Source of the DNA: a virus
Lineage: Duplodnaviria; Heunggongvirae; Uroviricota; Caudoviricetes
Direction: 5' to 3' (one strand)
Length of the DNA: 36,849 bases
Virus record (IMG/VR): IMGVR_UViG_2529292835_000026
Location: 1 to 36,849 of that record
The notes beneath the pieces were generated by a model. The model did no database searches and was not told the DNA's origin. It saw only the letters and a program-made list of their open reading frames with translations. The translations under genes and the position numbers were made by a program. Shown piece after piece: positions 12,618 to 36,168 of this stretch; the first letter of the stretch is position 1; each line of letters begins with the position of its first letter.

Positions 12618-12963
12618 TCTCTGCTCCTGTTGATACGGAAAGGGAAACAGGTACACCGTTATTCCGCCGCCCGGTCAGCTCCACCACCATAGAACCGTCA
12701 AAGTTGCTGTTGATGGTGATGGAATCCAGCGTCAGCCGTGGCTCCCAGCGACTCAGCGCCACATACACTGCCGACATGACCTGCAGGCGTAATGCCGGAT
12801 TTTGTGGCTGATCTATTAAAACCGACAGGAGGGAACCATATTCCCGGCGGGCAATGCGGCTACCCTGCGGTGTCAGCAGAATGTCCCGCACCGACTGGCG
12901 CAGATGATCAATATCAGTAATGACTTTGCCGCTGGTATTGTTCATCCCGCTATAAAGCGTCAT
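12604..12963 (-). CDS. W: Baseplate protein gpW-like
   Basis: 119-aa ORF with ...REYGSLLSVLIDQPQNPALRLQ... matching gpW. Confidence 0.85.
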   Translation of the reverse strand: MTLYSGMNNTSGKVITDIDHLRQSVRDILLTPQGSRIARREYGSLLSVLIDQPQNPALRLQVMSAVYVALSRWEPRLTLDSITINSNFDGSMVVELTGRRNNGVPVSLSVSTGAENGSD

Positions 12964-13538
12964 ACCGGGCCTCCGGTTGTATCGCCGCCTTTCAGGACAC
13001 CAGTATGCTGATGCGCATCAACCACAATCCCGTTAGAACTCATCGCACCGCCGCCCTGGGTAACGCCCCCATTGATCACTACTTCGCTGTTAATTCGCGT
13101 GCGGTCAGCCTCCAGCACAAACTCACTGGTTTTCATGGTGATATTGTCAGCGGCCTCAATGACCATTGATTTGATGCCCCTGACATACCAGCGCCCGGTG
13201 GCGGGTTCGTATTCAAACCAGCTACCGTCAGGATGTTCTGTCACGCAGGCGTCCGCCGACGTCGACGGTGGTGCGAACTGATTCGAATAGACAGCGGGCA
13301 GCGCAAAGGCAGTCTCCAGATTACCGCCCAGACTCAGCAGCACCACCTGCTCACCTTCCGATGGTCGCCACCATGTGCGGGCATTACCGGCACGCAGCGT
13401 CAGCCAACTGATCCAGTTAGTTTCAAGGTCGCCCGTTTTCACCCGGCAAAGCCAGTTCTCCCGGTCCACTTCGGTGACTACACCAGTGCGGATCAGATTG
13501 GTGATAAGGCGCATGATTTCGGTTAATTGTGCGTTCAT
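12960..13538 (-). CDS. V: Baseplate spike protein gpV-like
   Basis: Start set at MNAQLTEIMRLITNLIRTG by alignment to the P2 gpV N-terminus; the longer ORF 5' extension would overlap the promoter dyad. Confidence 0.85.
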   Translation of the reverse strand: MNAQLTEIMRLITNLIRTGVVTEVDRENWLCRVKTGDLETNWISWLTLRAGNARTWWRPSEGEQVVLLSLGGNLETAFALPAVYSNQFAPPSTSADACVTEHPDGSWFEYEPATGRWYVRGIKSMVIEAADNITMKTSEFVLEADRTRINSEVVINGGVTQGGGAMSSNGIVVDAHQHTGVLKGGDTTGGPV

Positions 13539-13585
13539 GCTGACAATATTGTTTCTTAAACTGAGTGATTGCATCGAAGTGGTTT

Positions 13586-13603
13586 TGTATGATTGCAGGC
13601 ACA
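13586..13603. promoter_or_regulatory. Candidate Ogr-dependent late promoter element (TGT-N12-ACA) upstream of V
   Basis: TGTATGATTGCAGGCACA about 57 bp upstream of the V start codon. Confidence 0.5.
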
Positions 13604-13626
13604 AGTTGTAACTAAGGAGGCGATTG

Positions 13627-14064
13627 ATGAAATCTTGGAAAAACCGAGGATTTAAAAAAAGGGTTCTTGAATATGTTTACTGTTTCTCCGCTGCTCCATT
13701 TTTAGCCATGTTCTACACGTTGTCAGAAAACCAGCTGACAATGTTTATAATTTTCTTCACTGTGAGTTTTTATCTCACTCTGATGGCATCCGTTTTTTTA
13801 ACAAAACGAGGATTTAACAAAGTATTCAAAGAATTCTTTAATTTATTATGGAACTATGAAACGGCCTTCGTTTTTTGCTATGGCCTTTATACTTATCTTT
13901 ATAGAATTGATGGGCAGAAAACTTTATCAAACCTCCTTACCATTATGTTTTCAGCTCACCCATGGACACTTATTTTCGGCATCGGACTCTTGGTTTTCAC
14001 AGTAATTTTCAGGTTTGCTCTGAGTGTTGCTGACTTGCTAGTTGAAGTTAAGTCAGATATATAA
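13627..14064 (+). CDS. Small polytopic membrane protein (about 145 aa), moron between V and S
   Basis: AAGGAGG 6 nt upstream of ATG at 13627 (the ORF track begins 3 nt earlier at a TTG); AT-rich; about four hydrophobic helices; opposite strand to the flanking late genes. Confidence 0.7.
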   Translation: MKSWKNRGFKKRVLEYVYCFSAAPFLAMFYTLSENQLTMFIIFFTVSFYLTLMASVFLTKRGFNKVFKEFFNLLWNYETAFVFCYGLYTYLYRIDGQKTLSNLLTIMFSAHPWTLIFGIGLLVFTVIFRFALSVADLLVEVKSDI

Positions 14065-14088: not shown

Positions 14089-14538
14089 TTAGCTATTTAC
14101 CAGCCAATCACATAATATATCCTTGGTGAAATCTAAAACATCTTTGTTGCTTCCTAACAATTTCCGCTCTGCATAACGGACCTCAGGTCCTTTGCGACTG
14201 ACGCGATCACGCAAGCCGTAATGGTGAACGCGTGCAATGCGCTGCACCTTACCTTCAAACTGTACGCTGGCAGAATCAGCGCTGGCGGCAGTTTTCAGGT
14301 ATTTTGTGGTACGAAGCTTTGTAAACATCTGGCGTTTGATGCGCCCCTTTTTACTGCGTGCTGTTACCCGTCGCGGTTCATAGCTGCTGCCGTCAGGGTT
14401 GCGCTGCATCCTGATATTCTGCTGCTGTGTCCGGCGCAGTTCCTGCGCCAGCTGACGCATCATGCGAATTCTTGCGGCTGGCTCCAGATTCGCCAGCAAG
14501 GCACTCAGCCAGTCGTCCACTTTCTGCAGTTCAGCCAC
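14089..14538 (-). CDS. S: Tail completion protein gpS-like
   Basis: 149-aa basic ORF downstream of R. Confidence 0.85.
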   Translation of the reverse strand: MAELQKVDDWLSALLANLEPAARIRMMRQLAQELRRTQQQNIRMQRNPDGSSYEPRRVTARSKKGRIKRQMFTKLRTTKYLKTAASADSASVQFEGKVQRIARVHHYGLRDRVSRKGPEVRYAERKLLGSNKDVLDFTKDILCDWLVNS

Positions 14539-20041: not shown

Positions 20042-21808
20042 ATGAACACCACACTGACCCCCGCAGATCTCGATCCCCGTCGGCAGGCCATGCTGCTGTA
20101 CTTTCAGGGATACCGCGTAGCCCGCATTGCTGAAATGCTGGGCGAGAAAGTTGCAACCGTTCACAGCTGGAAAAAACGCGACAAGTGGGGTGACTATGGG
20201 CCGCTGGATCAGATGCAGCTCACCACCGCCGCACGCTACTGCCAGCTCATTATGAAGGAGCACAAAGAAGGGAAAGATTTCAAAGAGATTGACCTGCTGG
20301 CGCGCCAGTCGGAACGCCACGCGCGGATCGGCAAGTTTAACAATGGCGGTAACGAAGCCGACTTAAACCCTAACGTCGCCAACCGCAACAAAGGCCCACG
20401 CCGTCAGCCGGAAAAGAACGTTTTCACCGATGAACAAATTGAGAAGCTGGAAGAAATTTTCCATTCCTCCATGTTCAACTACCAGCGCCACTGGTGGGAA
20501 GCCGGAAAAACCAACCGCATCCGCAACCTGCTGAAGTCTCGCCAGATCGGCGCGACCTTCTATTTTGCCCGTGAAGCCCTGATTGACGCCCTGCTGACCG
20601 GACGTAACCAGATTTTCCTTTCCGCCAGCAAGGCACAGGCCCACGTCTTTAAGCAGTACATCATCGACTTCGCCAAAGAAGTGGAGGTGGAGCTGAAAGG
20701 CGATCCGATGGTGCTTCCTAACGGGGCCACGCTTTACTTCCTCGGCACCAATGCCCGCACGGCCCAGAGTTATCACGGCAACCTGTATCTGGATGAATAT
20801 TTCTGGATCCCAAAATTCCAGGAGTTGCGCAAAGTGGCTTCCGGTATGGCTATTCACAAGAAATGGCGGCAGACCTATTTTTCCACACCATCCAGTCTGA
20901 CCCACAGTGCTTATCCGTTCTGGTCCGGTGCGCTGTTCAACCGTGGGCGCAACAAAGCTGACAAGGTGGACATCGACCTGTCCCACAGCAATCTGGCCCC
21001 CGGCCTGCTGTGCGCAGACGGGCAATACCGCCAGATAGTCACCGTGGAAGATGCGGTGCGCGGCGGCTGTAACCTGTTCGACCTTGACCAGTTGCGCATG
21101 GAGTACAGCCCGGACGAATACCAGAACCTGCTGATGTGCGAGTTTGTTGACGATCTCGCGTCCGTGTTCCCGCTCAGCGAGCTGCAGGCGTGCATGGTGG
21201 ACAGCTGGGAAGTCTGGACCGACTTTCATGCACTGGCTCTGCGCCCGTTTGGCTGGCGCGAAGTGTGGATCGGTTATGACCCGGCAAAAGGTACGCAGAA
21301 CGGCGACAGCGCCGGGTGCGTGGTGGTGGCACCGCCAGCCGTGCCTGGTGGTAAGTTCCGCATTCTTGAGCGTCACCAGTGGCGCGGGATGGACTTCCGC
21401 GCCCAGGCTGACGCCATCAAAAAACTGACCGAGCAGTACAACGTGACCTACATCGGCATCGACTCGACCGGCGTCGGCCACGGGGTTTACGAGAACGTGA
21501 AAGCGTTTTTTCCAGCCGTCCGGGAGTTTGTCTACAACCCCAACGTTAAAAACGCTCTGGTACTCAAGGCCTACGACATTATCAGCCACCGCCGTCTGGA
21601 GTTTGACGCCGGGCACACCGACATTGCGCAGTCATTCATGGCAATCCGTCGCGCCACCACCGCCAGTGGCAACCGCCCAACCTATGAAGCCAGCCGCAGC
21701 GAAGAAGCCAGCCACGCCGATCTGGCCTGGGCAACAATGCACGCACTGTTTAACGAACCGCTGCAGGGCGAGTCCGCCAATACCAGCAATATTGTGGAGA
21801 TTTTTTGA
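20042..21808 (+). CDS. P: Terminase ATPase (large) subunit gpP-like
   Basis: 588-aa ORF divergent from O, in the P2 gpP position. Confidence 0.9.
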   Translation: MNTTLTPADLDPRRQAMLLYFQGYRVARIAEMLGEKVATVHSWKKRDKWGDYGPLDQMQLTTAARYCQLIMKEHKEGKDFKEIDLLARQSERHARIGKFNNGGNEADLNPNVANRNKGPRRQPEKNVFTDEQIEKLEEIFHSSMFNYQRHWWEAGKTNRIRNLLKSRQIGATFYFAREALIDALLTGRNQIFLSASKAQAHVFKQYIIDFAKEVEVELKGDPMVLPNGATLYFLGTNARTAQSYHGNLYLDEYFWIPKFQELRKVASGMAIHKKWRQTYFSTPSSLTHSAYPFWSGALFNRGRNKADKVDIDLSHSNLAPGLLCADGQYRQIVTVEDAVRGGCNLFDLDQLRMEYSPDEYQNLLMCEFVDDLASVFPLSELQACMVDSWEVWTDFHALALRPFGWREVWIGYDPAKGTQNGDSAGCVVVAPPAVPGGKFRILERHQWRGMDFRAQADAIKKLTEQYNVTYIGIDSTGVGHGVYENVKAFFPAVREFVYNPNVKNALVLKAYDIISHRRLEFDAGHTDIAQSFMAIRRATTASGNRPTYEASRSEEASHADLAWATMHALFNEPLQGESANTSNIVEIF

Positions 21809-22836
21809 TGGGAAAGAGTAAGAAGAACCGCGCTGCGTCGACGAAACAGATTCAGCATAAAAGCCAGACTTCAGCCGAAGCATTCAGCTTCGGTGATCCC
21901 GTTCCTGTTCTGGACCGCCGCGAATTGCTGGACTATGTGGAATGCGTACAGATGGATCGCTGGTATGAGCCGCCCGTCAGCTTTGACGGACTGGCACGAA
22001 CCTTCCGCGCCGCCGTGCATCACAGCTCACCGATTGCGGTGAAATGCAACATTCTGACCAGCACCTACATCCCTCACCCGCTGCTCAGCCAGCAGGCTTT
22101 TTCACGTTTTGTGCAGGACTATCTGGTATTCGGTAACGCCTACCTGGAGAAACGCACGAATCGATTCGGTGAAGTTATCGCCCTTGAGCCTGCGCTGGCA
22201 AAATACACCCGACGCGGATTAGATCTGGATACCTACTGGTTTGTGCAATACGGCATGACTACGCAGCCGTATCAGTTCACGAAAGGCAGCATCTTTCATC
22301 TGATGGAACCGGATATCAACCAGGAGATCTACGGCCTGCCCGGTTATCTTTCTGCCATTCCGTCAGCCCTGCTCAACGAGTCCGCCACGCTGTTCCGCCG
22401 CAAGTATTACATTAACGGCAGTCATGCAGGCTTCATCATGTACATGACCGATGCAGCGCAGAACCAGGAGGATGTGAACAACCTCCGCAATGCGATGAAA
22501 AGCGCCAAAGGTCCAGGCAACTTCCGCAACCTGTTTATGTACTCACCTAACGGCAAAAAGGATGGTCTTCAGATTATCCCGTTGTCAGAAGTCGCGGCGA
22601 AGGATGAATTTCTGAATATCAAAAATGTCAGCCGCGACGACATGATGGCTGCGCACCGCGTGCCGCCGCAAATGATGGGGATTATGCCTAATAATGTTGG
22701 AGGGTTTGGGGATGTAGAGAAAGCTAGTAAGGTTTTTGTTATAAATGAACTGATACCTTTACAAAAACGGTTACAAGAACTAAATTATTGGATAGATGAA
22801 GATATAATCCAATTTGAAGATTATAGTTTAACTTAA
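21808..22836 (+). CDS. Q: Portal protein gpQ-like
   Basis: ATG overlaps the P stop codon (TGATG); the ORF track starts 3 nt earlier at a TTG. Confidence 0.9.
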   Translation: MGKSKKNRAASTKQIQHKSQTSAEAFSFGDPVPVLDRRELLDYVECVQMDRWYEPPVSFDGLARTFRAAVHHSSPIAVKCNILTSTYIPHPLLSQQAFSRFVQDYLVFGNAYLEKRTNRFGEVIALEPALAKYTRRGLDLDTYWFVQYGMTTQPYQFTKGSIFHLMEPDINQEIYGLPGYLSAIPSALLNESATLFRRKYYINGSHAGFIMYMTDAAQNQEDVNNLRNAMKSAKGPGNFRNLFMYSPNGKKDGLQIIPLSEVAAKDEFLNIKNVSRDDMMAAHRVPPQMMGIMPNNVGGFGDVEKASKVFVINELIPLQKRLQELNYWIDEDIIQFEDYSLT

Positions 22837-22849
22837 ATAATGATAACAC

Positions 22850-22868
22850 AGGGCCTAGAATCGGCCCT
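22850..22868. terminator. Hairpin between convergent Q and HNH genes (non-canonical terminator)
   Basis: AGGGCC-TAGAATC-GGCCCT stem-loop; no U-tract on either strand. Confidence 0.3.
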
Positions 22869-22873
22869 AAAAA

Positions 22874-23545
22874 TTAAAAACCAAGCTCATCTCTGATTCT
22901 TGGGAATTTTTTCATTACTCGAATATCAGTTAATAAATGCCAACGCCAAAAAACAGAAAATGGATATGATACATTACACATTGGCTTTAGCTTATTCTTG
23001 GCCTCTTGGATTTCTTGTTCTGTGCTTCGATCACTGACAAGTTTCATTCTCCAACCAGTAAAGTAAAACAATTCATCTTGTAACTTCTCTGAGAGATTTG
23101 CTCTTGTAATGCCCCTCAACCCCGTACTCGAAGAGTTAAAACACTTATCTAATAATTTGACTGTATTTAAAACCTTTCTACTTGGTCTTTTTCTTCTTGG
23201 GTATACTTGAACACCACTCGTTATAGCGTTCCCTGCGAGATGAACAATCTCACTGAAAACATCAACATCACTCTTTGTGCAATCAAGTAAGTTTTCAAAA
23301 GAATCACTTTTAATACTATTGCATCGACTGCAAGCTAAAAATAGATTGTTCCAATCATATTTGAGCTCATCAAGATCACGATGTGGAATAAAATGTTCTA
23401 TCTCTGGATCCATAAGATTACCTTGCTCACAGAGATAACATTTTCCATGAAATATTTCGTCTAAAGCATTTACAACTGTTTTATGGTTATATACTTTTCT
23501 CGACAAGCATTGAGGTGCAGGAATATTTCTAGTAACATTAAACAT
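22874..23545 (-). CDS. HNH endonuclease, Septu PtuB-like
   Basis: HGKCYLCE ... EIEHFIPH ... NNLFLACSRCNSIKS = HNH motif; overlaps the upstream ATPase gene by 8 nt; AT-rich. Confidence 0.75.
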   Translation of the reverse strand: MFNVTRNIPAPQCLSRKVYNHKTVVNALDEIFHGKCYLCEQGNLMDPEIEHFIPHRDLDELKYDWNNLFLACSRCNSIKSDSFENLLDCTKSDVDVFSEIVHLAGNAITSGVQVYPRRKRPSRKVLNTVKLLDKCFNSSSTGLRGITRANLSEKLQDELFYFTGWRMKLVSDRSTEQEIQEAKNKLKPMCNVSYPFSVFWRWHLLTDIRVMKKFPRIRDELGF

Positions 23546-24791
23546 CGTCTTCCCTTTCGCTATAATCTAAATATTTACTCTTAGCGATCATAAAAGCTGC
23601 TTTTGAACTTTTATCAAGAAAATCAATACTCTTCTGTAACGTTTTCATTATAGAATGAAATCTATCGTCGAAGACATTATTTTCTACTAAAGTCATTAAT
23701 TCTTTAACTAATGCATTTAGCTTATCCGAAGATACATCCTCACCCAACAATCCCTTTATAATTGCTGTGTAAGAATACAATGATAAATCACCCATCTGAT
23801 CCAATGTTGAGAGATTAAATATAATCGCATCAGATACTGATTGGATTACGAAAGGTGAATGCGTAGAAACAATAAATTGTATTTGCGGAAAAGATGATGA
23901 AAAAAAACTAAATACTTTCTTTTGCAATGTTACATGAAGATGAGCATCAATTTCATCAATAAGTACTATCCCTGTCATATCATGTTTTCTGATTTTATCA
24001 AGCTCTGCTTTTATCAATAAATCAGTATAAATAGAAAGAATTGATGAAAAACCAGATGACAACTTATCAAGTCCAAATGGTTCCTTATTATTTTGTAAAA
24101 GATAGATTTTCAACTTGTCGAGATCAAAATCCATTCTAATACTTTCATCTTCAAAAAGTTCTTTTAAGTCATCATTAATACTCTCAATAATATCAAAGGC
24201 TCTTTTATAGTCATCATCCTTGCCCACTCCCTTACTGACTAAAGCATAATTCCACAATGTAACTATGTATCTTTCAAAATACATACCAGCATCAATCTTA
24301 GAATTATTTCTCTGTGCGTTCCCATACTCAGTTAACAACAAATCGAGGCTGCTAATCTTACCATCATTTTTTATTTTCGCTTCTCGAATAGCAGGAAATA
24401 ATCTTATAATTGATTTTTTCTTTTTTGCAGCAACCCTGAAATCAACCACATCATTAAAAGTAATATCAAAGCTCTCAAATTCTTTTAATTTTTCTTTCAG
24501 TCTCTCAATTTCTTCGTTTAAATAGCTATAATTACCATCCCCTCTATTTGAATACTTTAAGTTTTCTTGACTGGAATTCAATTCCTTTTGTAGCTGCTCC
24601 TTAGTATAAGGATCATGTGAATTAATCGATTTTTCTATAAACTCATAAATATTCTCGATCAACCTAGTTTTACCAGAGCCATTATCTCCTGATATTATTA
24701 GATTCTTACCATCAAGATTTAATGTGTAAGGCTCATCGTTCCTTTTAAAGAAGATAGTTTCGATGAAATGTCGCATTATTCCTCCCGTCAT
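23538..24791 (-). CDS. ABC/SMC-type ATPase, Septu PtuA-like
   Basis: Walker A GDNGSGKT, ABC signature LSSGFSS, Walker B VLIDEIDAHLH, H-loop STHSP. Alternative start at 24776 (MRHF...) has a GGGAGGA Shine-Dalgarno. Confidence 0.75.
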   Translation of the reverse strand: MTGGIMRHFIETIFFKRNDEPYTLNLDGKNLIISGDNGSGKTRLIENIYEFIEKSINSHDPYTKEQLQKELNSSQENLKYSNRGDGNYSYLNEEIERLKEKLKEFESFDITFNDVVDFRVAAKKKKSIIRLFPAIREAKIKNDGKISSLDLLLTEYGNAQRNNSKIDAGMYFERYIVTLWNYALVSKGVGKDDDYKRAFDIIESINDDLKELFEDESIRMDFDLDKLKIYLLQNNKEPFGLDKLSSGFSSILSIYTDLLIKAELDKIRKHDMTGIVLIDEIDAHLHVTLQKKVFSFFSSSFPQIQFIVSTHSPFVIQSVSDAIIFNLSTLDQMGDLSLYSYTAIIKGLLGEDVSSDKLNALVKELMTLVENNVFDDRFHSIMKTLQKSIDFLDKSSKAAFMIAKSKYLDYSEREDDV

Positions 24792-24866
24792 ACTTAATAG
24801 CTTTTAGATAATATGACATTACATGTTAGATTTCATCCGTTTTGTGAACATATCCACTGCCGCGCG

Positions 24867-24885
24867 CTCGTATCCCCGCCACGCC
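24867..24885. other. Candidate cohesive-end (cos) site
   Basis: Minus strand reads GGCGTGGCGGGGATACGAG; the first 13 nt equal the start of the 186-type cos sequence as I recall it (GGCGTGGCGGGGAAAGCAT). Position between the Tum-like module and Q fits P2/186 genome order. Confidence 0.4.
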
Positions 24886-25083
24886 TGCCCGCTTTATGTA
24901 GTGGTTTTCATGCGCCTGCATGACATAAGCAAAAGCCCGCCACTCCTGGCAGGCCTCAGCAAAAACGATCCTCTAACGATCATGCGATCTCATTCGTCAT
25001 AGTCATGCACAGCCAAGGGAAGCGTAAATCCGTATCTGAATGACCGCTGAAAAGCTAATCATACGGGTTTACAAAGATGAAAG

Positions 25084-25123
25084 TCCGCTGTGAGCGAAAA
25101 GCGGATATTTCCATTGTTTTATC
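25084..25123. terminator. Hairpin with T-rich tail in the cos/divergent-promoter region
   Basis: TCCGCT-GTGAGCGAAA-AGCGGA followed by TATTTCCATTGTTTTATC. Confidence 0.3.
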
Positions 25124-25228
25124 TTGATCTAGTAAAAACAATACCCTCTTTACAAACAAAAATAATGAGTTACTATTTGCAGCACCTTTTAACCCAAAGG
25201 TTTATAATTAAAAAGGAATGGCATACCG

Positions 25229-25882
25229 ATGAATAAATACAAACTTTTCGCACAGCTATCAAGATATTCATTTGAAGCGCAGATTGATGATTTCGAAAAA
25301 TATATCCTAGGAGCAGGCGGCCAAAACAGAGTTGACTTATCGGAATTAAAAAAAGCATATGAAGATGAAAAAAAGAATGCTCCTGACGATTATATTAATT
25401 ACTTAGAAGACTATTATTCAGAGCAATATGATTTCTTAGTTAACATACAACCAAATATTTTTAATAAATCTGCTTTGGTATCTTTATACTCATGCTTAGA
25501 GCACAACCTAAACGACTATTGCAATATATGTCAAAGGATTGTAAACACCAATATATCAGTAACCGATTTTAATGGTGATGGCATCCACAAAGCAAAAAGA
25601 TATTTAACAAAATTAATGGATATAAACTTTGGCCTGTCACAAGAGTGGCGATTCATGACAGAGTTTAACAAAGTAAGGAATTGCATAGTTCATGCTAATG
25701 GAGACATTAAAAAAATGAGCACAGCTGTAGCCTTAAAAGATATCATTGATAAAACACCTACTCTTTCATTAAACAATGAAAATAATATAATAATCTCCTT
25801 AAATTATTTAAAAGATACTATCACAAAAATTAGAAAACTCTTTCAATGGTTATATACACATCTGGATCAATCATCGAAATGA
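25229..25882 (+). CDS. Uncharacterised 217-aa protein with HEPN-like R-x4-H motif (candidate defence/abortive-infection RNase)
   Basis: AAGGAA upstream of ATG; very AT-rich; motif EFNKVRNCIVHANGD fits the HEPN R-x4-6-H signature; no other recognisable domain. Confidence 0.5.
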   Translation: MNKYKLFAQLSRYSFEAQIDDFEKYILGAGGQNRVDLSELKKAYEDEKKNAPDDYINYLEDYYSEQYDFLVNIQPNIFNKSALVSLYSCLEHNLNDYCNICQRIVNTNISVTDFNGDGIHKAKRYLTKLMDINFGLSQEWRFMTEFNKVRNCIVHANGDIKKMSTAVALKDIIDKTPTLSLNNENNIIISLNYLKDTITKIRKLFQWLYTHLDQSSK

Positions 25883-25982
25883 ATACGATAACATCTCAGT
25901 TTGTTATTGGTCTATTTTTGAAAACAGCTATCGATGATATTAGTCTGTTCTTCGTCAATTAATATGCAATCCGTTCATGACA

Positions 25983-26004
25983 CAGGGCTGCTGTTACAGC
26001 CCTG
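25983..26004. other. Perfect 8-bp-stem hairpin between convergent cargo genes
   Basis: CAGGGCTG-CTGTTA-CAGCCCTG; no U-tract; sits in a short GC-normal patch between two AT-rich genes. Confidence 0.3.
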
Positions 26005-26134
26005 ACAACCTTAGACTTCAATCGATTCAGAGATCTCTAACGCATCATCACCCGTTGAACTCACAGCGATAAGTAGACGCTGGCGGCAATAACACAGAAG
26101 TGTAGCGGGAATTTGAACCACATAATTTGGTTTG

Positions 26135-27001
26135 TTAGATGGCTTTGCTTCGATATTCAATTTCTAAAATCGCCTTTGTCATTGCCGCAATAGTTATAGC
26201 TTCTACCATAGTCAATTCAGGCTTGTTCAAGCTTCCGTGTCCAGCAGTAGGTAATTTGTTACGTAAATCATAAATATCTTTAACAGCATCAATAAGATTC
26301 TTAGGTAATTTTGACATTTTTTCGAACTGTTTAAAAAAACCACCCAATGACTCATTTGCCACATTCGGGTTTTGAGTGATTTCCTTAGCCATAGTTTCTA
26401 AAACATTAGAGGCTGCGTGCAGTGCACCTGCCGGATCATTATTATCCAAGCAATTATTCATTCTATCTATTTGCTGAACGATATTTGGGTGCAATCTCTT
26501 TAAGTAATCACTAGCCAATTCTTCATTGAAATTTTTGACACTTTCAAAAACATCGCAATCTAAATAAAATTTAGGATTGACTGACATCCATGTATATTTC
26601 CAATCATTTTCTAAATTATCTTTTTCCGCAATCCGCCTGCCAGTGTCCTGATCTATCTCATCAACATATTTACACATATAATCGGCGTAGTAGTGTAAAT
26701 ATCTAAATGATATTTCTGGGCAAAAATTACTAACTGATGCAAGGCCGCCATATTCTTTTGTAGTAACTGTAGGGACTTCTTCATCACATAAAGATGAGAA
26801 AGTGGTTCTTTCCCAAAATTCGCCCAACTCTTTTTCTTTCCTAGTTGCCATACCAGCTATCATATTGATGCTTGAGAGCAAAACTACACTCTGATAGTAT
26901 CGAGGACATCTGTATGAACTAGCATATGGGCATATTGATGATGCTTTACGATTAATACGCTCTTTTTCCCACCAATTTTTATCAGGAATAATTCTTTGCA
27001 T
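26135..27001 (-). CDS. Uncharacterised 288-aa protein, candidate defence cargo
   Basis: Long AT-rich ORF convergent with the 217-aa gene; Cys-rich N-terminus (CPYASSYRCPRYY); no family recognised by eye; no clear Shine-Dalgarno at the first ATG. Confidence 0.5.
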   Translation of the reverse strand: MQRIIPDKNWWEKERINRKASSICPYASSYRCPRYYQSVVLLSSINMIAGMATRKEKELGEFWERTTFSSLCDEEVPTVTTKEYGGLASVSNFCPEISFRYLHYYADYMCKYVDEIDQDTGRRIAEKDNLENDWKYTWMSVNPKFYLDCDVFESVKNFNEELASDYLKRLHPNIVQQIDRMNNCLDNNDPAGALHAASNVLETMAKEITQNPNVANESLGGFFKQFEKMSKLPKNLIDAVKDIYDLRNKLPTAGHGSLNKPELTMVEAITIAAMTKAILEIEYRSKAI

Positions 27002-27439
27002 AATTTAGCTACTATCTCACGAGTGAATGAATGTTTAGCCTTCTGCACAGTTTATCAGTTCCGGCATGCCTACTGCTACCCCACTGATTCAACTTCAAGT
27101 TATGAGTTAAAGCGATTCGGTTTCGCTAGATGACACACTAGTGTTAATTTATGGATAAAAATTTATCACTTAAAATTAACTAATGCCTGTTGCGACCAAA
27201 AGTGTGCTGGAATATTATTTTCGTCTGGCCTATTATCAAGCTAATTATCCAAATTAGAGTTACTCTCATTCATCAGCAACAAATAAATACACCTGTTCAC
27301 TTTCTCAAAGTGTTCCTGTTTTATTTTTAAAGCAAACAACGCCGCCTATTCGTCCGAATGTACAACAAACATCAGGTTCTGACACAAAGTGGACGATCAC
27401 TTATCAAAATGACCGCCCACCTTACACCTCATTTCACTC

Positions 27440-27484
27440 GTTGCCCAAACTCCCCCCAACAGGATAAATCCTCTTGGGGGCAAC
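27440..27484. other. Extended G/C-rich stem-loop just downstream of the DinI-like gene
   Basis: CCCCCCAA ... TTGGGGG with inner AGGAT/ATCCT pairing, flanked by GTTGCCC/GGGCAAC; no clear U-tract. Confidence 0.3.
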
Positions 27485-27489
27485 GTTTC

Positions 27490-27723
27490 TTAATGCAGCC
27501 AGCTGTCGTCTTCCCACACCTTCTGCATAATTTTCAGCACTTGTTTTCTTTCTTCGTCCAGTTGCAGTCCGGTCAGTTCCACACCGTTAGAGCTACCTTT
27601 GCGGATACGAATTACCGTTTTGGGATACAGGGGGCGCAGATTGCGGTAAAGCTCGGATTCAAGGGCATCCAGGGTAGACTGGCTAATCTTCTGCTCTTTA
27701 TCGATCATTATTTCAATGCGCAT
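27490..27723 (-). CDS. DinI-family protein
   Basis: MRIEIMIDK...LDALESELYRNLRPLYP...VIRIRKGSSNGVEL...ERKQVLKIMQKVWEDDSW aligns with DinI; GAGGTGA Shine-Dalgarno before the internal Met used as start. Confidence 0.8.
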   Translation of the reverse strand: MRIEIMIDKEQKISQSTLDALESELYRNLRPLYPKTVIRIRKGSSNGVELTGLQLDEERKQVLKIMQKVWEDDSWLH

Positions 27724-27733
27724 AAAAGTCACC

Positions 27734-27922
27734 TCAGCTGATGACATCCATTGAGCGGTTGTATTCGTGGGTTCTGATTTTTGCCATGAGTTCATCAGTC
27801 AATTCAGAAACCCACTGCAGAGCCAGCCCCTTCTCTTCATCACTACACTCACTAGCCGCTACAAGCTTAAGAAAAAAATCAATGCGCTGGAGCTTCAAAG
27901 ACTCCAAAAAATAGTCCTGCAT
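27734..27922 (-). CDS. Small LexA-regulated ORF (62 aa), candidate Tum-like antirepressor component
   Basis: AGGAGG upstream of ATG at 27922; LexA box 45-60 bp upstream; directly followed by the DinI-like gene. The longer ORF start would include the LexA box. Confidence 0.45.
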   Translation of the reverse strand: MQDYFLESLKLQRIDFFLKLVAASECSDEEKGLALQWVSELTDELMAKIRTHEYNRSMDVIS

Positions 27923-27965
27923 CTTTCCTCCTATAACACCACGAGCAATACTGTATACATGACCA

Positions 27966-27981
27966 CTGTTTATATTTACAG
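27966..27981. promoter_or_regulatory. LexA (SOS) box
   Basis: CTGTTTATATTTACAG = CTGT-N8-ACAG with AT-rich spacer, embedded in cCACTGTTTATATTTACAGTAt. Confidence 0.75.
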
Positions 27982-28075
27982 TATATAATAATCTTACTGA
28001 TGTAAAACGTTTTTTTACGTTCATCAGCCTGATATGCCTGGTATTATTAAGAGCACGAATTGTTAATCCGCGTAA

Positions 28076-30490
28076 TTAATACAGGTTCCGCCACTTATCA
28101 TCTTCCTGTAAACGCTGATTCCGATAGAAGATACGCAGGCCAGCCCCTGACGGAATACTGCCTCCGCGAAGGAGTAAATCGACCTCTTTCTCGCTGCCAT
28201 CAAATCCTCTGGACTTCAGTTCATAGACGAGCTGCTGTCGCTGATGGTCTGTAATTCGCTGTTTGTAGTCTTTGCGCCGTTTCGGTTTCACCTGGCGTAA
28301 CCTTGCAGCCAGTTCCCGACGCTCTTTTTTGCTCATACTGTGCAGATAATCGTGCAACTCCTTGTCATCCTGGCGGGTAATGTCAGTTCTGGTGTCCCCA
28401 TCAGCTGATTTATCTTTCTCCTGTTGGTTCAAATTTTCAGCAAGGGGACAGTTATTGCCACGAGTCCAAGGGGCGCAAGCGCCCTTGTCGGCTGCCGCCT
28501 CCTGAACGTCAACGGCCTTACGAACCATTTTCCACTTCACTGCATGAGTGCAGATCTTGCCCTCTGCAATGGGTGACCAGATGCCATAAATACGAATACC
28601 GTGATCGCCATAGGCGGTCGGCTCTTCGTTGATTTCATAAGCAGTTCTGATGAGGTGATATTTGCGGGGAACCAGTACGCCGCCCTGCTTCATGATGTAG
28701 GTGGCAAAACAACCAGCATCAGCAGCAGCCAGGATTGCATCAAGGCGCGGGTTATCCAGTACCGGCGCACCTGCTTTTTTGTCCCCCTGCTGCCTTGCCG
28801 CCTGACCAGCCAGCAATCGCAGTTCACGGTAAGCCTGACGCCCCGGAATGCCAAAGAAGCGGAATTGCTGAACACGATGCAGAGACGCCCAAGCATTAAC
28901 GTATTCAGCGTTATCACGCAGGGATTTACCCGTTTCCTTGCTGATCTCGCCAGCCAGACCACGCCCGTCAATGTTCTTACTGATGTATTTCGCGATGTAG
29001 CTTGTTGGCGTACCTTTGCGCGGGTTTATCAGCTCGGACTTAAAGCGTGGTCCCGTGTTATTACCCAGCTCCTCGCGGTCTTCACGAATGGCAAACTTAC
29101 GCAACAAAGCAGTAATGGCGCGGCGATCTTTTTTGCGCATAAAACACAACAGGTGCCAGTGAACTGTACCGTCGTGATGCGGCTCAGCCACCCGCACGCC
29201 ATACCAGCGCAACCCGGCTTTGTGCATCGCCTTACGAAATGCAGCAAACATACCGACCAGATAATCACTGCTTTGTCTTACCGTCGCATTTGTCCAGGTT
29301 GGGTTGGGCCTGCCGTTATTTAGCGTGGAATGGAAACGTGACGGACAGGTGATGGTGTAGAAAACGGCGCAGTCACCGCGCATTTCCGCGATAAGCTCCA
29401 GACCTTTAACACAGGCCATCATCTCATTGCGGCGATGCGCAGGGTTGCTGCTGCTGGCGTTTACCACATCCTCCATGTCCAGCGTGTCGCCGTCTTCGTT
29501 CACCAGTTCATGAGAACGGAAAAACTCCAGCGACTTACGGCGCTGCTCACGTTTATGCATCACGGCTTCATAGCTGACATAAGGAGATGCTTTTTTGCTA
29601 ACCAGGCAGACAGCGCGCAACTGCTCTTCCCGCCATTCGCAACGCATCTTCCATAATTTCCGATACCACCAGTCGGCGCACAACATACGCGCCAGCGAAC
29701 CCGGAATGAGTTCATAGGGCACGGGTTTACGGCGGTTTCTTTTCCGACGGAGTTGCTCAAACGCAGGCGGGATAACATCCAGACGCAGGGTTTCCGCTGC
29801 CACCTTTTCCCACGTCTTGCGGATTTCTTCTGGCTTAACGTCATCGGTGGCATACAAATCACCACAAGCGGCATCAAGGCACATGCTCATATGCGCAGCA
29901 ACAAGGGTAGACAGACGCTTCACCTGATCCTGACTCATTTCAGGCAGGATCAGCAGGCCGTCCAGCCCTTCATGGCTTGCCATAAAGCGAAAAGAAGTGG
30001 ATAGCTGACAGTCGCGTACATGCTCCAGTCGTTCCAGACATGGCTTAATCGTCTCACGCAAATAGCGGGAATAAGCCTTTGGCCTGCCCAGGCTGCTGAA
30101 GTATTCAATACGTTGCATCAGCGGCTTGCTGATATGGGAAGGCTGGGCATTGACGTCCGCCAGAATGACCATATCTGGATTAAAACGCTGCTGCTCATGC
30201 GCCAGCTTTGCCCGGCTAATGAGTTTATCCTGCTCCATTTCGCGTTGGACAGGATCACGGGATTCATTAAAGAAATAACGCTCCCAGACCTGATCACTCA
30301 GTGCCTCGCGGCGCAGTTGTTCCAGCTCGTTATCGACAGCGTACAGAGTGATCAGGTTTGAAAGCGCAGAAACCGGCGCAACTTCCGCCGGGTCCAGATA
30401 AGGGTTAATGGCCTTTTTCGGGCTGTTCCATGAGAATGCTGCGGCGACCTCGTTAAAGCCGCTGCAGTTGTTCATATCAGCATGGCTCAT
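28076..30490 (-). CDS. A: Replication initiation endonuclease gpA-like (rolling circle)
   Basis: ...[19 protein letters not shown]... and ...[12 protein letters not shown]... match conserved P2 gpA motifs; 804 aa. Confidence 0.9.
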
Positions 30491-34472: not shown

Positions 34473-35489
34473 ATGACTGTCAGAAAACAGCCAAACGGTA
34501 AATGGTTGTGCGAGTGCTATCCCAATGGACGCAATGGCAAGCGCGTGCGTAAGCAATTTGCTACGAAAGGCGAAGCCATTGCTTTTGAAAGCTTCACAAT
34601 GGAAGAAGTGAACAAAAAACCATGGCTGGGGGAAAAGGAAGATCGGCGACACCTATCAGAATTAATTGAGCAGTGGTATTCCCTGTATGGTCAAACACTC
34701 GCAGACCCCAAGCGCCTCATGGCGAAACTTAGAATTATCTGTAATGGTCTAGGCGATCCCATCGCTTCAGAACTGACAGCCGGTGACTTTACGAAATACC
34801 GCGAAGCACGGTTAAAAGGGGAAGTACGAAATGAAGATGGCACGTTTATGTCGCCCGTTAAGCCCCGCACGGTAAACCTTGAACAGCGCAATCTATCATC
34901 TGTTTTTGGTACACTGAAAAAGTTGGGCCACTGGTCAGCCTCCAACCCGCTTGCTGGGCTGCCAACATTTAAAATTGCTGAGAGTGAATTGGCGTTCCTG
35001 ACCCCGGAAGAAATTAAACGTCTGCTGGATGCCTGCGCCGATTCTCAAAGCTCCAGCCTGCTTTTGATTGCAAAAATATGCCTGGCCACCGGCGCACGCT
35101 GGAGCGAAGCCGAAAACCTGCAGAGTCATCAGGTATCAAAATACCGTATCACTTATACCAAGACCAAAGGCAAGAAAAACCGAACTGTGCCTATTTCTAA
35201 GGATTTATATGAAGAACTGCCTAAGAATAGGGGGAAGTTATTCACCCCATGCAGAAAAGCCTTTGAGCGTGCAGTAAAGCGGGCTGGTATCGATCTGCCA
35301 GAGGGTCAATGTACTCACGTTCTGCGTCATACATTCGCTAGCCATTTTATGATGAATGGTGGAAACATATTGGTTTTGCGGGATATCCTAGGACATTCAG
35401 ATATAAAAATGACCATGGTCTATGCACACTTCGCCCCAGACCATTTAGAAGATGCCGTAACTAAAAATCCTTTATTTAATTTGAGGTAA
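34473..35489 (+). CDS. int: Tyrosine integrase (P2 Int-like)
   Basis: C-terminal catalytic motifs ...HVLRHTFASHFMMNGG...LGHSDIKMTMVYAHF (R...HxxR...Y). Confidence 0.9.
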   Translation: MTVRKQPNGKWLCECYPNGRNGKRVRKQFATKGEAIAFESFTMEEVNKKPWLGEKEDRRHLSELIEQWYSLYGQTLADPKRLMAKLRIICNGLGDPIASELTAGDFTKYREARLKGEVRNEDGTFMSPVKPRTVNLEQRNLSSVFGTLKKLGHWSASNPLAGLPTFKIAESELAFLTPEEIKRLLDACADSQSSSLLLIAKICLATGARWSEAENLQSHQVSKYRITYTKTKGKKNRTVPISKDLYEELPKNRGKLFTPCRKAFERAVKRAGIDLPEGQCTHVLRHTFASHFMMNGGNILVLRDILGHSDIKMTMVYAHFAPDHLEDAVTKNPLFNLR

Positions 35490-35499
35490 GTAGTAATTT

Positions 35500-36168
35500 A
35501 TGAATAGCGAACTAGAGTTACTTATAAAAATATTATTCCCTTCCCTATCTGCCATTATATCCTTATTAGGGCTTAAAACAGGGTGGACTTATAAAAAAGA
35601 CAAACTATTCACATCACGTAAAAACATTAGCGAATTTTCATATCAGATGTATAAAAGCAGTGAAGATCCGACCTTCAAAAAACTGGCGGAAGATTACGGC
35701 ATTGCTGCATTAACCAAAGATAACACATTGACAAAAAAACAAAGATTAATATTACTCAACACAACAAACCCCGTTAGCGATATAGATAATTATTCCAAAT
35801 GTCAAAGTCTAATTTCCATTACCACCCATAAAGAAATATTCGCATGGAATAAAAAAAGATATAAATACAGCATATATAGAAAATTAATAAAAATCATAAC
35901 AACTCTAATTTACTTCATGAGCAGTCTCATCGTAGCACTTCCTTTCAGTTATTCTGTTGTAGTAAGTGCTAAGATGATGGAGAAGATAAACCATCTAACT
36001 ACTTGGCAATACTTTGGTTTAAGCAGCTATTTTGTGGTATCGGGAGTAGCAATATGCTTTATCTGCCTAGATAAGCTCTCCAAGATTAAGATCGCCGAGA
36101 GATTAATCGTTTCGAATAGGCGTTTAGGCGACAAATGCAGTGGCGGCACTTTGGCGGCAGAAAGTTAA
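35500..36168 (+). CDS. Membrane protein (222 aa), cargo between int and attR
   Basis: Very AT-rich; GAGGT upstream; three hydrophobic helices (N-terminal and two C-terminal); no family recognised. Confidence 0.6.
   Translation: MNSELELLIKILFPSLSAIISLLGLKTGWTYKKDKLFTSRKNISEFSYQMYKSSEDPTFKKLAEDYGIAALTKDNTLTKKQRLILLNTTNPVSDIDNYSKCQSLISITTHKEIFAWNKKRYKYSIYRKLIKIITTLIYFMSSLIVALPFSYSVVVSAKMMEKINHLTTWQYFGLSSYFVVSGVAICFICLDKLSKIKIAERLIVSNRRLGDKCSGGTLAAES

What the first reader, a model, noticed from the sequence alone, without database searches (positions are those of the whole stretch)
25229..25882. Orphan HEPN-motif protein in the cos-flanking hotspot
A 217-aa AT-rich ORF sits just past the candidate cos site and diverges from the Septu-like operon. 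It carries VRNCIVHANGD, which fits the HEPN R-x4-6-H catalytic signature, and I recognise no other domain. HEPN proteins recur as toxic RNases in abortive-infection systems, and this position is the tin/old-type cargo slot of P2-like phages. It has no obvious partner gene, so it could be a single-gene defence system or a toxin with a missed small antitoxin.
Basis: partly seen in the sequence, partly recalled or inferred. Interest (0 to 1): 0.75.

Follow-up and report, generated by a model that had tools for sequence, protein, structure and literature searches.

The report
Solo HEPN nuclease gene in P2 hotspot
A small, AT-rich gene beside the packaging site of a P2-like prophage encodes a predicted HEPN-type RNA-cutting enzyme from a large, untested family, and is most likely a stand-alone anti-phage suicide switch, which is a plausible but unsurprising finding for this hotspot.

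Summary
The window is an E. coli P2-like prophage. The gene lies in the known gpA-gpQ, cos-adjacent defence hotspot. It is divergent from a bona fide Septu pair (PtuA/PtuB).

The R-x4-H motif alone is weak evidence, since 32% of shuffles of this protein contain one. The HEPN call still holds on three grounds:
- **Family conservation.** A profile search finds 3,867 clusters of mostly 205-235-aa proteins. Among 152 representatives, R150 is kept in 152, N151 in 150, H155 in 151 and the upstream E91 in 147.
- **Profile matches.** Relatives hit PADLOC RTasHEPN, and more weakly Pfam RiboL-PSP-HEPN.

The protein itself passes no curated family threshold. It is not HepS, PD-T4-2B, a HepT/MntA toxin, Tin or Old.

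Homologues travel alone in other P2 slots, lambdoid prophage ends, an ICE, plasmids and type I R-M operons. Nothing outside the ORF is conserved, so there is no conserved antitoxin.

Verdict: a new member of a known kind. Function is untested.

The parts
25229..25882 (+). 217-aa ORF. It has an N-terminal helical extension (about aa 1-70) and a HEPN core (about aa 70-215) that carries a small beta-hairpin insert (aa 179-189).
25676..25693 (+). Codons for R150-N151-C-I-V-H155, the predicted HEPN catalytic motif (R-N-x3-H).
   Evidence: R is kept in 152/152, N in 150/152 and H in 151/152 cluster representatives. R150 and H155 are invariant in alignments A1 and A2, and N151 is invariant in A1 and nearly so in A2.
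25499..25501 (+). Codon for E91, the conserved upstream acidic residue expected in HEPN active sites.
   Evidence: E is kept in 147/152 representatives. The feature is described in PMC3710099.
25149..25176 (+). Sigma-70-like promoter (TTTACA-16-TACTAT), about 50 nt upstream of the ATG. This is a consensus match only.
   Evidence: The number of such sites in the region is no higher than in shuffles. The segment is conserved in the Enterobacter locus L012.
25113..25142 (.). 30-nt palindrome (15 + 15 nt, 80% complementary) abutting the -35 hexamer. It may be an operator. Its function is unknown.
   Evidence: Largely conserved in Enterobacter L012.
25213..25218 (+). AAGGAA ribosome-binding site, 10 nt before the ATG.
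   Evidence: Read. Conserved in L012.
24861..25011 (.). Conserved P2-type cos region, with the core GGCGTGGCGGGGA at 24873-24885 on the - strand. It separates this gene from the Septu pair.
26135..27001 (-). Convergent neighbour of 288 aa. It has a Cys-rich N-terminal domain and a C-terminal HEPN (Abi_C-like) domain with R247...H255. I judge it an adjacent independent module, not a proven partner.
25983..26004 (.). GC-rich hairpin (CAGGGCTG-ctgtta-CAGCCCTG) between the two convergent genes. It has no T-run, so it is not a canonical intrinsic terminator.
   Evidence: Read. Not reported by the terminator scan.

Best explanation
The gene encodes a stand-alone HEPN-superfamily ribonuclease, carried as a self-contained cargo gene (a 'moron') in the cos-adjacent gpA-gpQ defence hotspot of a P2-like prophage.

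**Shown**
- The ORF is a conserved protein-coding gene belonging to a very large family of proteins of about 215 aa.
- The family's most conserved features are R150-N151-x3-H155 and E91.
- The predicted fold is closest to HEPN domains.
- The gene moves between mobile elements as a single ORF.

**Inferred**
- Like other HEPN enzymes, it acts as a homo-oligomer. Two R-N-x3-H motifs would form a composite, metal-independent RNase site.
- It is expressed from its own promoter in the lysogen and held inactive. No antitoxin travels with it, so this would have to be auto-inhibition.
- A cue from an infecting phage, or loss of a host function, switches it on. It then cleaves cellular RNA (tRNA anticodon loops are the best precedent; mRNA or rRNA are also possible). 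That stops translation and aborts the infection, protecting sister lysogens.
- The N-terminal helical extension of about 70 aa is the likeliest oligomerisation or sensor element.
For: **Family and motif**
- 3,867 clusters at E<=1e-3 and 1,574 at E<=1e-10, mostly full-length matches of 205-235 aa.
- Conservation counts for R150, N151, H155, E91, W140 and C98.

**Fold**
- Model with pLDDT 88.7.

**Profiles**
- PADLOC RTasHEPN at 5e-5 for the window protein, and hit by 56/63 relatives, best 1e-10.
- Pfam HEPN_RiboL-PSP hit by 13/63 relatives, best 3e-7.

**Solo mobility**
- Alone, on the opposite strand, in the P2 Z/fun slot of Morganella.
- In the P2 V-S slot of an IMG/VR contig.
- At lambdoid prophage ends in Salmonella and Enterobacter.
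- In a Pantoea ICE.
- On plasmids and in a Bacillus phage.
- Nucleotide homology is confined to the ORF.

**Defence-type company**
- Embedded in type I R-M operons.
- Beside GmrSD, HNH, a restriction endonuclease and Abi_C genes.

**Independence from Septu**
- PtuAB is replaced by a P-loop NTPase in O25b:H4 while this gene is kept.

**Hotspot and precedent**
- The hotspot is documented in PMC9122126 and PMC9519451.
- HepS sets the precedent for a solo, auto-inhibited prophage HEPN anticodon nuclease (PMC13043305).
Against: - There is no experimental evidence of any kind for this protein or for any close relative.
- The protein reaches no curated threshold. It gives no Pfam HEPN hit even at E 10. 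The PADLOC hit covers only 43 of 148 profile positions.
- Foldseek against the PDB found nothing significant.
- I could not inspect the model's coordinates, so the placement of R150 and H155 in a cleft or at a dimer interface is unverified.
- In E. coli the gene is never found without the 288-aa HEPN neighbour.
- The gene is rare: 9 of 5,426 complete E. coli genomes.
Confidence: 0.6

Rival explanations
1. Two-gene module. The 217-aa HEPN protein and the convergent 288-aa Cys-rich/HEPN (Abi_C-like) protein work together, for example as sensor plus effector or as a hetero-oligomeric RNase. The cargo unit would then be the pair.
For: - Every E. coli or P2-like copy at >=96% identity has the 288-aa gene 253 nt downstream.
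- The pair persists while the module on the other side of cos changes.
- Distant family members also lie next to Abi_C genes in Bacillus toyonensis (44 nt apart, same strand) and in Priestia megaterium.
- HEPN enzymes need two HEPN domains to form one site (PMC3710099).
Against: - The genes are convergent, so they are not an operon.
- Homologues of the 217-aa gene at 61-81% identity in Enterobacter, Salmonella, Morganella, Pantoea and an IMG/VR phage have no 288-aa homologue within 6 kb.
- Homologues of the 288-aa gene in Salmonella, Pectobacterium, Vibrio, Pseudomonas and Rac-like E. coli prophages have other neighbours and no member of the 217-aa family.
- Homology to the Rac-type loci starts at 25899, just after the 217-aa stop codon. 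That implies a junction between two cassettes.
Confidence: 0.13
2. Toxin of a toxin-antitoxin pair whose antitoxin was missed. The antitoxin would be a small ORF or an antisense or adjacent RNA in 24900-25230 or 25883-26134.
For: - HEPN toxins are commonly paired with antitoxins (HepT/MntA, RnlA/RnlB, LsoA).
- The upstream region holds a hairpin (25084-25105) and a 30-nt palindrome, both conserved in Enterobacter.
- Small ORFs exist on both strands.
Against: - Across genera, homology begins within 24 nt of the ATG and ends no more than 58 nt past the stop. Only the 81%-identical Enterobacter locus shares 146 nt upstream and 80 nt downstream. No flanking ORF or RNA is therefore conserved.
- Rfam gives no hit in 22000-28500 at E<=1.
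- There is no MNT or nucleotidyltransferase neighbour.
- In type I R-M operons the gene sits tightly between hsd genes.
Confidence: 0.07
3. A guard of another immune system acting in trans (PrrC-like logic). The RNase would be held silent by a host or prophage complex, such as an R-M enzyme or Septu, and fire when a phage inhibits that complex.
For: - Distant family members are inserted inside type I R-M operons: HsdR-HsdS-[HEPN]-HsdM with overlapping stop and start codons, and PUA-like-[HEPN]-HsdM. This mirrors prrC in the prr locus (PMC3710099).
- A Septu pair lies 437 nt away across cos.
Against: - No R-M genes lie in this hotspot.
- Septu is swapped out in O25b:H4.
- Close homologues sit in slots with no defence neighbour.
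- The protein lacks the ABC ATPase domain of PrrC.
Confidence: 0.1
4. Not a defence gene. It could be an RNA-binding or RNA-processing HEPN protein that serves the prophage or host in some other way, or a selfish addiction element.
For: - HEPN domains also occur in non-defence roles such as MtlR, sacsin and Las1 (PMC3710099).
- No phenotype is known.
- Location in a hotspot is only circumstantial evidence.
Against: - The catalytic-type motif is essentially invariant, which argues against a purely binding role.
- The distribution is almost wholly on mobile elements and next to nucleases or R-M genes.
Confidence: 0.1

Closest known systems
HepS (Gifsy-1 'HEPN Solo' abortive-infection protein, Salmonella; PMC13043305, PDB 9oik)
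   Same: - Single prophage-encoded HEPN protein of almost the same size (218 vs 217 aa), with an R-N-x3-H motif.
- No partner or antitoxin gene.
- Carried in an accessory slot of a temperate phage.
   Different: - No detectable sequence relationship. A profile of the family finds no HepS chain in the PDB at E<=10.
- The motif lies at residue 100 in HepS and at 150 here, so the domain layout differs.
- Trigger (siphovirus tail tip), tetramer and tRNA targets are known for HepS and unknown here.
RiboL-PSP-HEPN (Pfam PF18735; Anantharaman et al. 2013), including PD-T4-2B as named in UniRef
   Same: - Nearest curated HEPN family. 13/63 relatives give hits (best 3e-7).
- UniRef labels 97-98%-identical proteins 'RiboL-PSP-HEPN domain-containing'.
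- Conserved R-x4-H.
   Different: - The window protein and its close relatives give no PF18735 hit even at E 10. The relatives scored individually reach 17-22 bits against the 28.4-bit cut-off.
- No L-PSP fusion or ParB operon was seen in any context.
- No PADLOC PD-T4-2 hit and no GNAT partner.
PADLOC RTasHEPN (HEPN partner of defence-associated reverse transcriptases). This is probably the UG22-associated cluster of PMC9226505, which is my inference.
   Same: Best profile match: 5e-5 for the window protein, and hit by 56/63 relatives with a best E-value of 1e-10.
   Different: - No reverse transcriptase lies next to the gene here or in any context examined.
- The match covers only the motif region, 43 of 148 profile positions.
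PrrC / R-M-embedded HEPN anticodon nucleases
   Same: Distant members of the family are embedded in type I R-M operons, as prrC is. The predicted RNase chemistry is the same.
   Different: The protein has no ABC-ATPase domain, and no R-M genes lie in this locus.
HepT/MntA (HEPN-MNT) type VII toxin-antitoxin toxins
   Different: There is no MNT antitoxin gene. Sequence identity is 6-11%. This protein has an extra 70-aa N-terminal extension and a beta-hairpin insert.
P2 tin/old and other cargo of the gpA-gpQ hotspot (PMC9122126, PMC9519451)
   Same: Same genomic slot and the same logic of a lysogen-expressed exclusion gene. Table S5 of PMC9122126 lists this very arrangement (WP_001404037 + ...) as 'hypothetical'.
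   Different: Not homologous to Tin or Old. tblastn against 50,697 phage records, the collection in which I would expect the P2 reference to sit, finds only one Bacillus phage. As far as I could find, the gene has not been tested.

Membership tests
HEPN superfamily | R-x4-6-H motif with a polar residue (N/D/H) immediately after R, conserved across the family | tested here: met
   R150-N151-x3-H155. R is kept in 152/152, N in 150/152 and H in 151/152 cluster representatives. R150 and H155 are invariant in A1 and A2; N151 is invariant in A1 and nearly so in A2.
HEPN superfamily | Second conserved acidic residue upstream of the motif | tested here: met
   E91 is kept in 147/152 representatives. 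It is not in the textbook E-x3-[KR] form; here the sequence is E-H-N-L-N.
HEPN superfamily | Four-helix up-and-down bundle of about 100-120 aa, with inserts allowed | tested here: met
HEPN superfamily | R and H lining a composite cleft at a dimer interface; metal-independent RNase activity | not testable with these tools
   Model coordinates could not be read and no multimer prediction was available. There is no biochemistry.
Pfam PF18735 HEPN_RiboL-PSP | Score at or above the gathering cut-off (28.4 bits) | tested here: not met
   No hit at E<=10 for the window protein or for P0005, P0012 and P0024. Relatives P0034 and P0035 reach 17.4 and 21.7 bits. 13/63 relatives hit at E<=0.01.
Pfam PF18735 HEPN_RiboL-PSP | Fusion to endoRNase L-PSP or an operon with ParB (Anantharaman 2013, Table 1) | tested here: not met
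   Seen in none of the roughly 20 contexts examined.
PADLOC DRT / RTasHEPN | HEPN gene adjacent to a UG/Abi reverse transcriptase | tested here: not met
   The HMM hit is partial (aa 122-164; 5e-5). No RT domain appears in the neighbours in the window or in related loci.
HepS family | Sequence homology to STM14_3211 / PDB 9oik | tested here: not met
HepS family | Solo HEPN on a prophage with no conserved partner | tested here: met
   This is a functional analogy only.
HepT/MntA type VII TA | Adjacent MNT (nucleotidyltransferase) antitoxin gene | tested here: not met
   No such ORF flanks the gene.
PD-T4-2 | Match to PD-T4-2B and an adjacent PD-T4-2A gene | tested here: not met
   PADLOC gave no PD-T4-2 hit for the protein at E<=1. 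PD-T4-2 was not among the 15 PADLOC families hit at E<=0.01 by the 63 relatives.
Septu (PtuA/PtuB) | Belongs to the PtuAB operon | tested here: not met
   The gene is divergent from the operon and separated from it by cos. PtuAB is replaced by a P-loop NTPase in O25b:H4 while this gene is retained.
PrrC-like R-M-embedded anticodon nuclease | N-terminal ABC ATPase, and a location inside a type I R-M locus | tested here: not met
   There is no ATPase domain and no hsd genes in the window. Two distant family members are inside hsd operons.

The most novel reading that the evidence does not exclude
This gene is the E. coli representative of a very large, uncharacterised family (at least 3,800 clusters at 50% identity, not captured by Pfam) of minimal stand-alone HEPN immune RNases. 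The same 215-aa protein would work either as free cargo in phage, ICE and plasmid hotspots or wired into type I R-M operons as a second-line guard. It would sense its trigger through its own N-terminal helical extension, as a PrrC/HepS-like anticodon nuclease without any ATPase or partner. A weaker variant of this reading is that it recurrently teams up with Abi_C-type HEPN proteins (E. coli, Bacillus, Priestia) as a two-HEPN system.
Probability: 0.3. Interest if true: 0.6.

Novelty: new member of a known kind. Interest (0 to 1): 0.4.

Why it matters
If the gene does confer phage resistance, it would add another experimentally tractable solo HEPN abortive-infection protein from E. coli. It would also give a functional handle on thousands of unannotated proteins of about 215 aa. 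These proteins are spread across bacteria on prophages, plasmids, an ICE and inside R-M operons, and current Pfam and defence-finder models miss them or label them only marginally.

The finding also shows that this particular P2 hotspot carries three separate candidate or known defence modules around cos: Septu, this HEPN gene, and a Cys-rich Abi_C-like HEPN gene.

It does not challenge current concepts. HEPN RNases in P2 hotspots are expected.

Tried and rejected
- **Sequence search against the PDB.** A single-sequence search found nothing, and so did the family profile.
- **Foldseek against the PDB.** No significant match, E>0.3. The afdb50 library was unavailable.
- **Curated libraries.** NCBIfam and PHROGs gave no hits. 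The Pfam hits to Med15_fungi and FG-GAP are sub-threshold noise.
- **Rac-like prophage neighbour.** I tested whether the 208-aa ORF beside the 288-aa homologue in Rac-like prophages is a diverged copy of the 217-aa gene. It is not.
- **Pectobacterium and Salmonella neighbours.** The convergent 213-aa ORF in Pectobacterium and the DUF4145 neighbour in Salmonella do not belong to the family.
- **The two window HEPN proteins.** They are not detectably related to each other.
- **The search for related loci.** The diverse alignment A2 failed for lack of a conserved stretch. The closer alignment A1 gave few distant loci.
- **HepS sequence.** I tried to retrieve it from the LT2 Gifsy-1 record for a direct comparison. 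The candidate ORF STM2620 has no R-x4-6-H and is clearly a different protein. The HepS comparison therefore rests.
- **Non-coding RNA.** An Rfam scan of 22000-28500 found none.
- **Literature.** A search for the protein accession found no paper text. The supplements of the DefensePredictor paper do not list it.

Full report
**1. The observation**

The ORF is exactly as described: 25229-25882, + strand, ATG start, 217 aa. An AAGGAA ribosome-binding site lies 10 nt upstream. GC content is 30.1% for the ORF against 49.5% for the window. The gene sits in a low-GC block from about 22.5 to 27.5 kb.

VRNCIVHANGD is at aa 149-159, and R150...H155 is the only R-x4-6-H in the protein. On its own that motif is weak evidence. 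32% of shuffles of this protein contain R-x4-6-H, and 6.5% contain the stricter R-[NDH]-x3-5-H.

**2. The setting**

The window is 100% identical to P2-like prophages in several ETEC genomes. Pfam confirms portal gpQ (21805-22836), replication protein gpA (28076-30490), and gpV, gpS and gpR.

Between gpQ and gpA the order is as follows:
- PtuB (22874-23545, -) and PtuA (23538-24791, -), at PADLOC 2e-82 and 7e-122. This is a genuine Septu pair.
- A conserved cos segment (24861-25011) with a unique core GGCGTGGCGGGGA at 24873-24885.
- The 217-aa gene (+).
- A convergent 288-aa gene (26135-27001, -).
- A DinI-like gene, then a small ORF, then gpA.

This gpA-gpQ interval is the published P2 defence hotspot that holds tin and old in P2 itself (PMC9122126; PMC9519451). 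Table S5 of PMC9122126 lists this very arrangement (WP_001404037 + WP_001404038 + DinI + ... + AAA_21 + ...), with the gene called 'hypothetical'. I found no sign that it was tested.

**3. Is it a HEPN protein?**

Curated libraries are silent on the window protein. Pfam, NCBIfam and PHROGs give nothing meaningful. The only direct hit is PADLOC RTasHEPN, at 5e-5 over aa 122-164.

The word-indexed protein search found only 32 clusters, all enteric except one from Bacillus. A profile of these (A1), searched against 1.84 billion representatives, found 3,867 clusters at E<=1e-3 and 1,574 at E<=1e-10. Nearly all are full-length matches to proteins of 205-235 aa.

In 63 diverse members at 20-35% identity, the invariant columns are W140, R150 and H155. 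S81, Y87, E91, C98, N151 and G158 are at least 90% conserved. Over 152 cluster representatives the counts are R 152, N 150, H 151, E91 147, W140 148 and C98 144. This is the HEPN signature defined by Anantharaman et al. 2013: R-x4-6-H, a polar residue after R, and an upstream acidic residue (PMC3710099).

Of the 63 members, 56 hit PADLOC RTasHEPN (best 1e-10) and 13 hit Pfam HEPN_RiboL-PSP (best 3e-7). UniRef names two 97-98%-identical proteins 'RiboL-PSP-HEPN domain-containing'.

An AlphaFold2 model built on A1 is confident, with pLDDT 88.7 and pTM 0.83. It is all-helical apart from a small hairpin at aa 179-189.

Truncated relatives and the PADLOC profile indicate a HEPN core at about aa 70-215, preceded by a family-specific helical extension of about 70 aa.

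I conclude the HEPN assignment is sound, at about 0.9. The family is a peripheral relative of RiboL-PSP-HEPN that Pfam does not capture.

**4. Orphan or partnered?**

In fact the convergent 288-aa neighbour is itself a HEPN protein:
- It has a weak Pfam Abi_C hit at 0.0017.
- A 97%-identical relative carries a precomputed PF14355 hit.
- Its C-terminus aligns to a Bacillus Abi_C protein at 5e-5.
- Its N-terminal half has invariant Cys and His residues.

In E. coli the 217-aa gene is rare, occurring in 9 of 5,426 complete genomes. It is always followed by the 288-aa gene. The pair persists when PtuAB is replaced by a P-loop NTPase.

The wider picture separates the two genes. Homologues of the 217-aa gene at 61-81% identity occur without any 288-aa homologue within 6 kb:
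- In Enterobacter and Salmonella, at lambdoid prophage ends.
- In Morganella, in the P2 Z/fun slot between tail sheath and tail-fibre assembly, alone on the opposite strand.
- In an IMG/VR P2-like contig, in the V-S slot.
- In a Pantoea ICE.
- A tblastn of the 288-aa protein over all these loci confirms its absence.

Homologues of the 288-aa gene in Salmonella, Pectobacterium, Vibrio, Pseudomonas and Rac-like E. coli prophages have other neighbours and no member of the 217-aa family.

Homology to the Rac-type loci begins at 25899, 17 nt past the 217-aa stop codon. That marks a cassette junction.

Between genera, nucleotide homology to the 217-aa locus starts within 24 nt of the ATG and ends no more than 58 nt after the stop. 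Only the 81%-identical Enterobacter locus shares 146 nt upstream and 80 nt downstream. No flanking small ORF or RNA is therefore conserved. Rfam finds nothing.

The shared upstream piece contains a hairpin, a 30-nt palindrome, a sigma-70-like promoter and the ribosome-binding site.

**5. Contexts of distant relatives**

- Inside type I R-M operons: HsdR-HsdS-[HEPN]-HsdM with overlapping stop and start codons, and PUA-like-[HEPN]-HsdM.
- Next to GmrSD in a planctomycete.
- Next to HNH and Abi_C genes in Priestia megaterium.
- Directly downstream of an Abi_C gene beside an integrase in Bacillus toyonensis.
- Between an HNH gene and the small terminase in Bacillus phage vB_BteM-A9Y.
- On plasmids of many genera.

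No single partner recurs. The company is that of defence islands and mobile-element cargo.

**6. Mechanism (inferred)**

The protein is most likely a solo HEPN RNase made in the lysogen from its own promoter. It would oligomerise so that two R-N-x3-H motifs, together with E91, form a metal-independent RNase site. It would be kept latent by auto-inhibition and activated by a phage cue, shutting down translation and aborting the infection.

The closest functional precedent is HepS of Gifsy-1. HepS is a 218-aa solo HEPN protein with R100-N101-x3-H105. It forms a tetramer, is auto-inhibited, is opened by siphovirus tail-tip protein, and cleaves tRNA anticodon loops (PMC13043305).

The R-M-embedded relatives suggest that some members follow PrrC-like guard logic (PMC3710099).

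My confidence in the solo-defence-RNase reading is about 0.6. The rivals are:
- A two-HEPN module with the neighbour, 0.13.
- A guard acting in trans, 0.10.
- A non-defence role, 0.10.
- A toxin with a missed antitoxin, 0.07.

**7. Novelty and verdict**

The slot and the protein superfamily are well known. Solo HEPN defence proteins already have a precedent in HepS, and single-protein HEPN-containing systems such as DS-11 have been validated in E. coli.

The new points are these:
- This catalogued 'hypothetical' gene belongs to a very large, unannotated HEPN family.
- It travels as a single gene.
- Its neighbour is a second, unrelated HEPN gene.

That makes it a new member of a known kind. It is worth cloning but not surprising, and I score interest at 0.4. 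Nothing here demonstrates function.

Noticed in passing
window 26135-27001 (-): The 288-aa neighbour combines a Cys-rich N-terminal domain with a C-terminal HEPN/Abi_C-like domain. C24, C32, C94, C149 and H171 are invariant across 23 homologues, which may indicate a metal site. The candidate motif is R247-x7-H255, a wider spacing than the canonical R-x4-6-H. It is uncharacterised and matches no PADLOC system (only PDC-S32 at E 0.008).
   Followed up: partly
L011 5136-6750; L018 5068-7810; window 25229-27001: Members of the 217-aa HEPN family lie beside Abi_C-domain genes in three places: Bacillus toyonensis (44 nt apart, same strand), Priestia megaterium (HNH-HEPN-119aa-Abi_C) and E. coli. This could be defence-island clustering or a real two-HEPN association. 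The sample is too small to decide.
   Followed up: partly
L038 2417-6105; L039 2659-6265: Distant family members are inserted within type I R-M operons. One sits between hsdS and hsdM with overlapping stop and start codons. The other sits between a PUA-like gene and hsdM. This recalls prrC.
   Followed up: no
window 25084-25142: A hairpin (25084-25105) and a 30-nt palindrome (25113-25142) lie immediately upstream of the promoter-like site of the 217-aa gene. Both are conserved in the 81%-identical Enterobacter locus. They could form an operator. No regulator was identified.
   Followed up: partly
window 13624-14064 (+): A low-GC (36%) 146-aa ORF lies on the opposite strand between baseplate gpV (12960-13604) and tail gpS (14089-14538). 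It has no Pfam or PADLOC hit. In IMG/VR contig L023 a 67-69%-identical homologue of the 217-aa HEPN gene occupies what appears, from reading the flanking N-terminal sequences, to be this same V-S slot. This suggests a third cargo site in P2-like phages.
   Followed up: partly
window 35500-36168 (+): A 222-aa ORF in a 32%-GC segment lies directly after the prophage integrase (34473-35489). It has no Pfam hit and only very weak PADLOC matches (Cas2_II at 0.007, 1TM-TIR at 0.012). It may be cargo at the attachment-site end.
   Followed up: no
L024 6001-6652 (NZ_CP015088 / IMGVR_UViG_2718218398_000001): In this 29.5-kb record the 217-aa gene is split into two reading frames at codon 78. This is a frameshift or a sequencing error.
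   Followed up: no
L003 4350-7105 (E. coli EC261, Rac-like prophage): A 96.5%-identical copy of the 288-aa gene is annotated as two CDSs, so it may be disrupted. It lies beside a zeta-toxin family gene and a 208-aa hypothetical gene. Homology to the window begins at 25899.
   Followed up: partly
L002 4287-5939 (E. coli O25b:H4): On the gpQ side of cos, the Septu pair is replaced by a single 550-aa P-loop NTPase-fold gene while the right-hand cargo is unchanged. The two sides of cos exchange independently.
   Followed up: no
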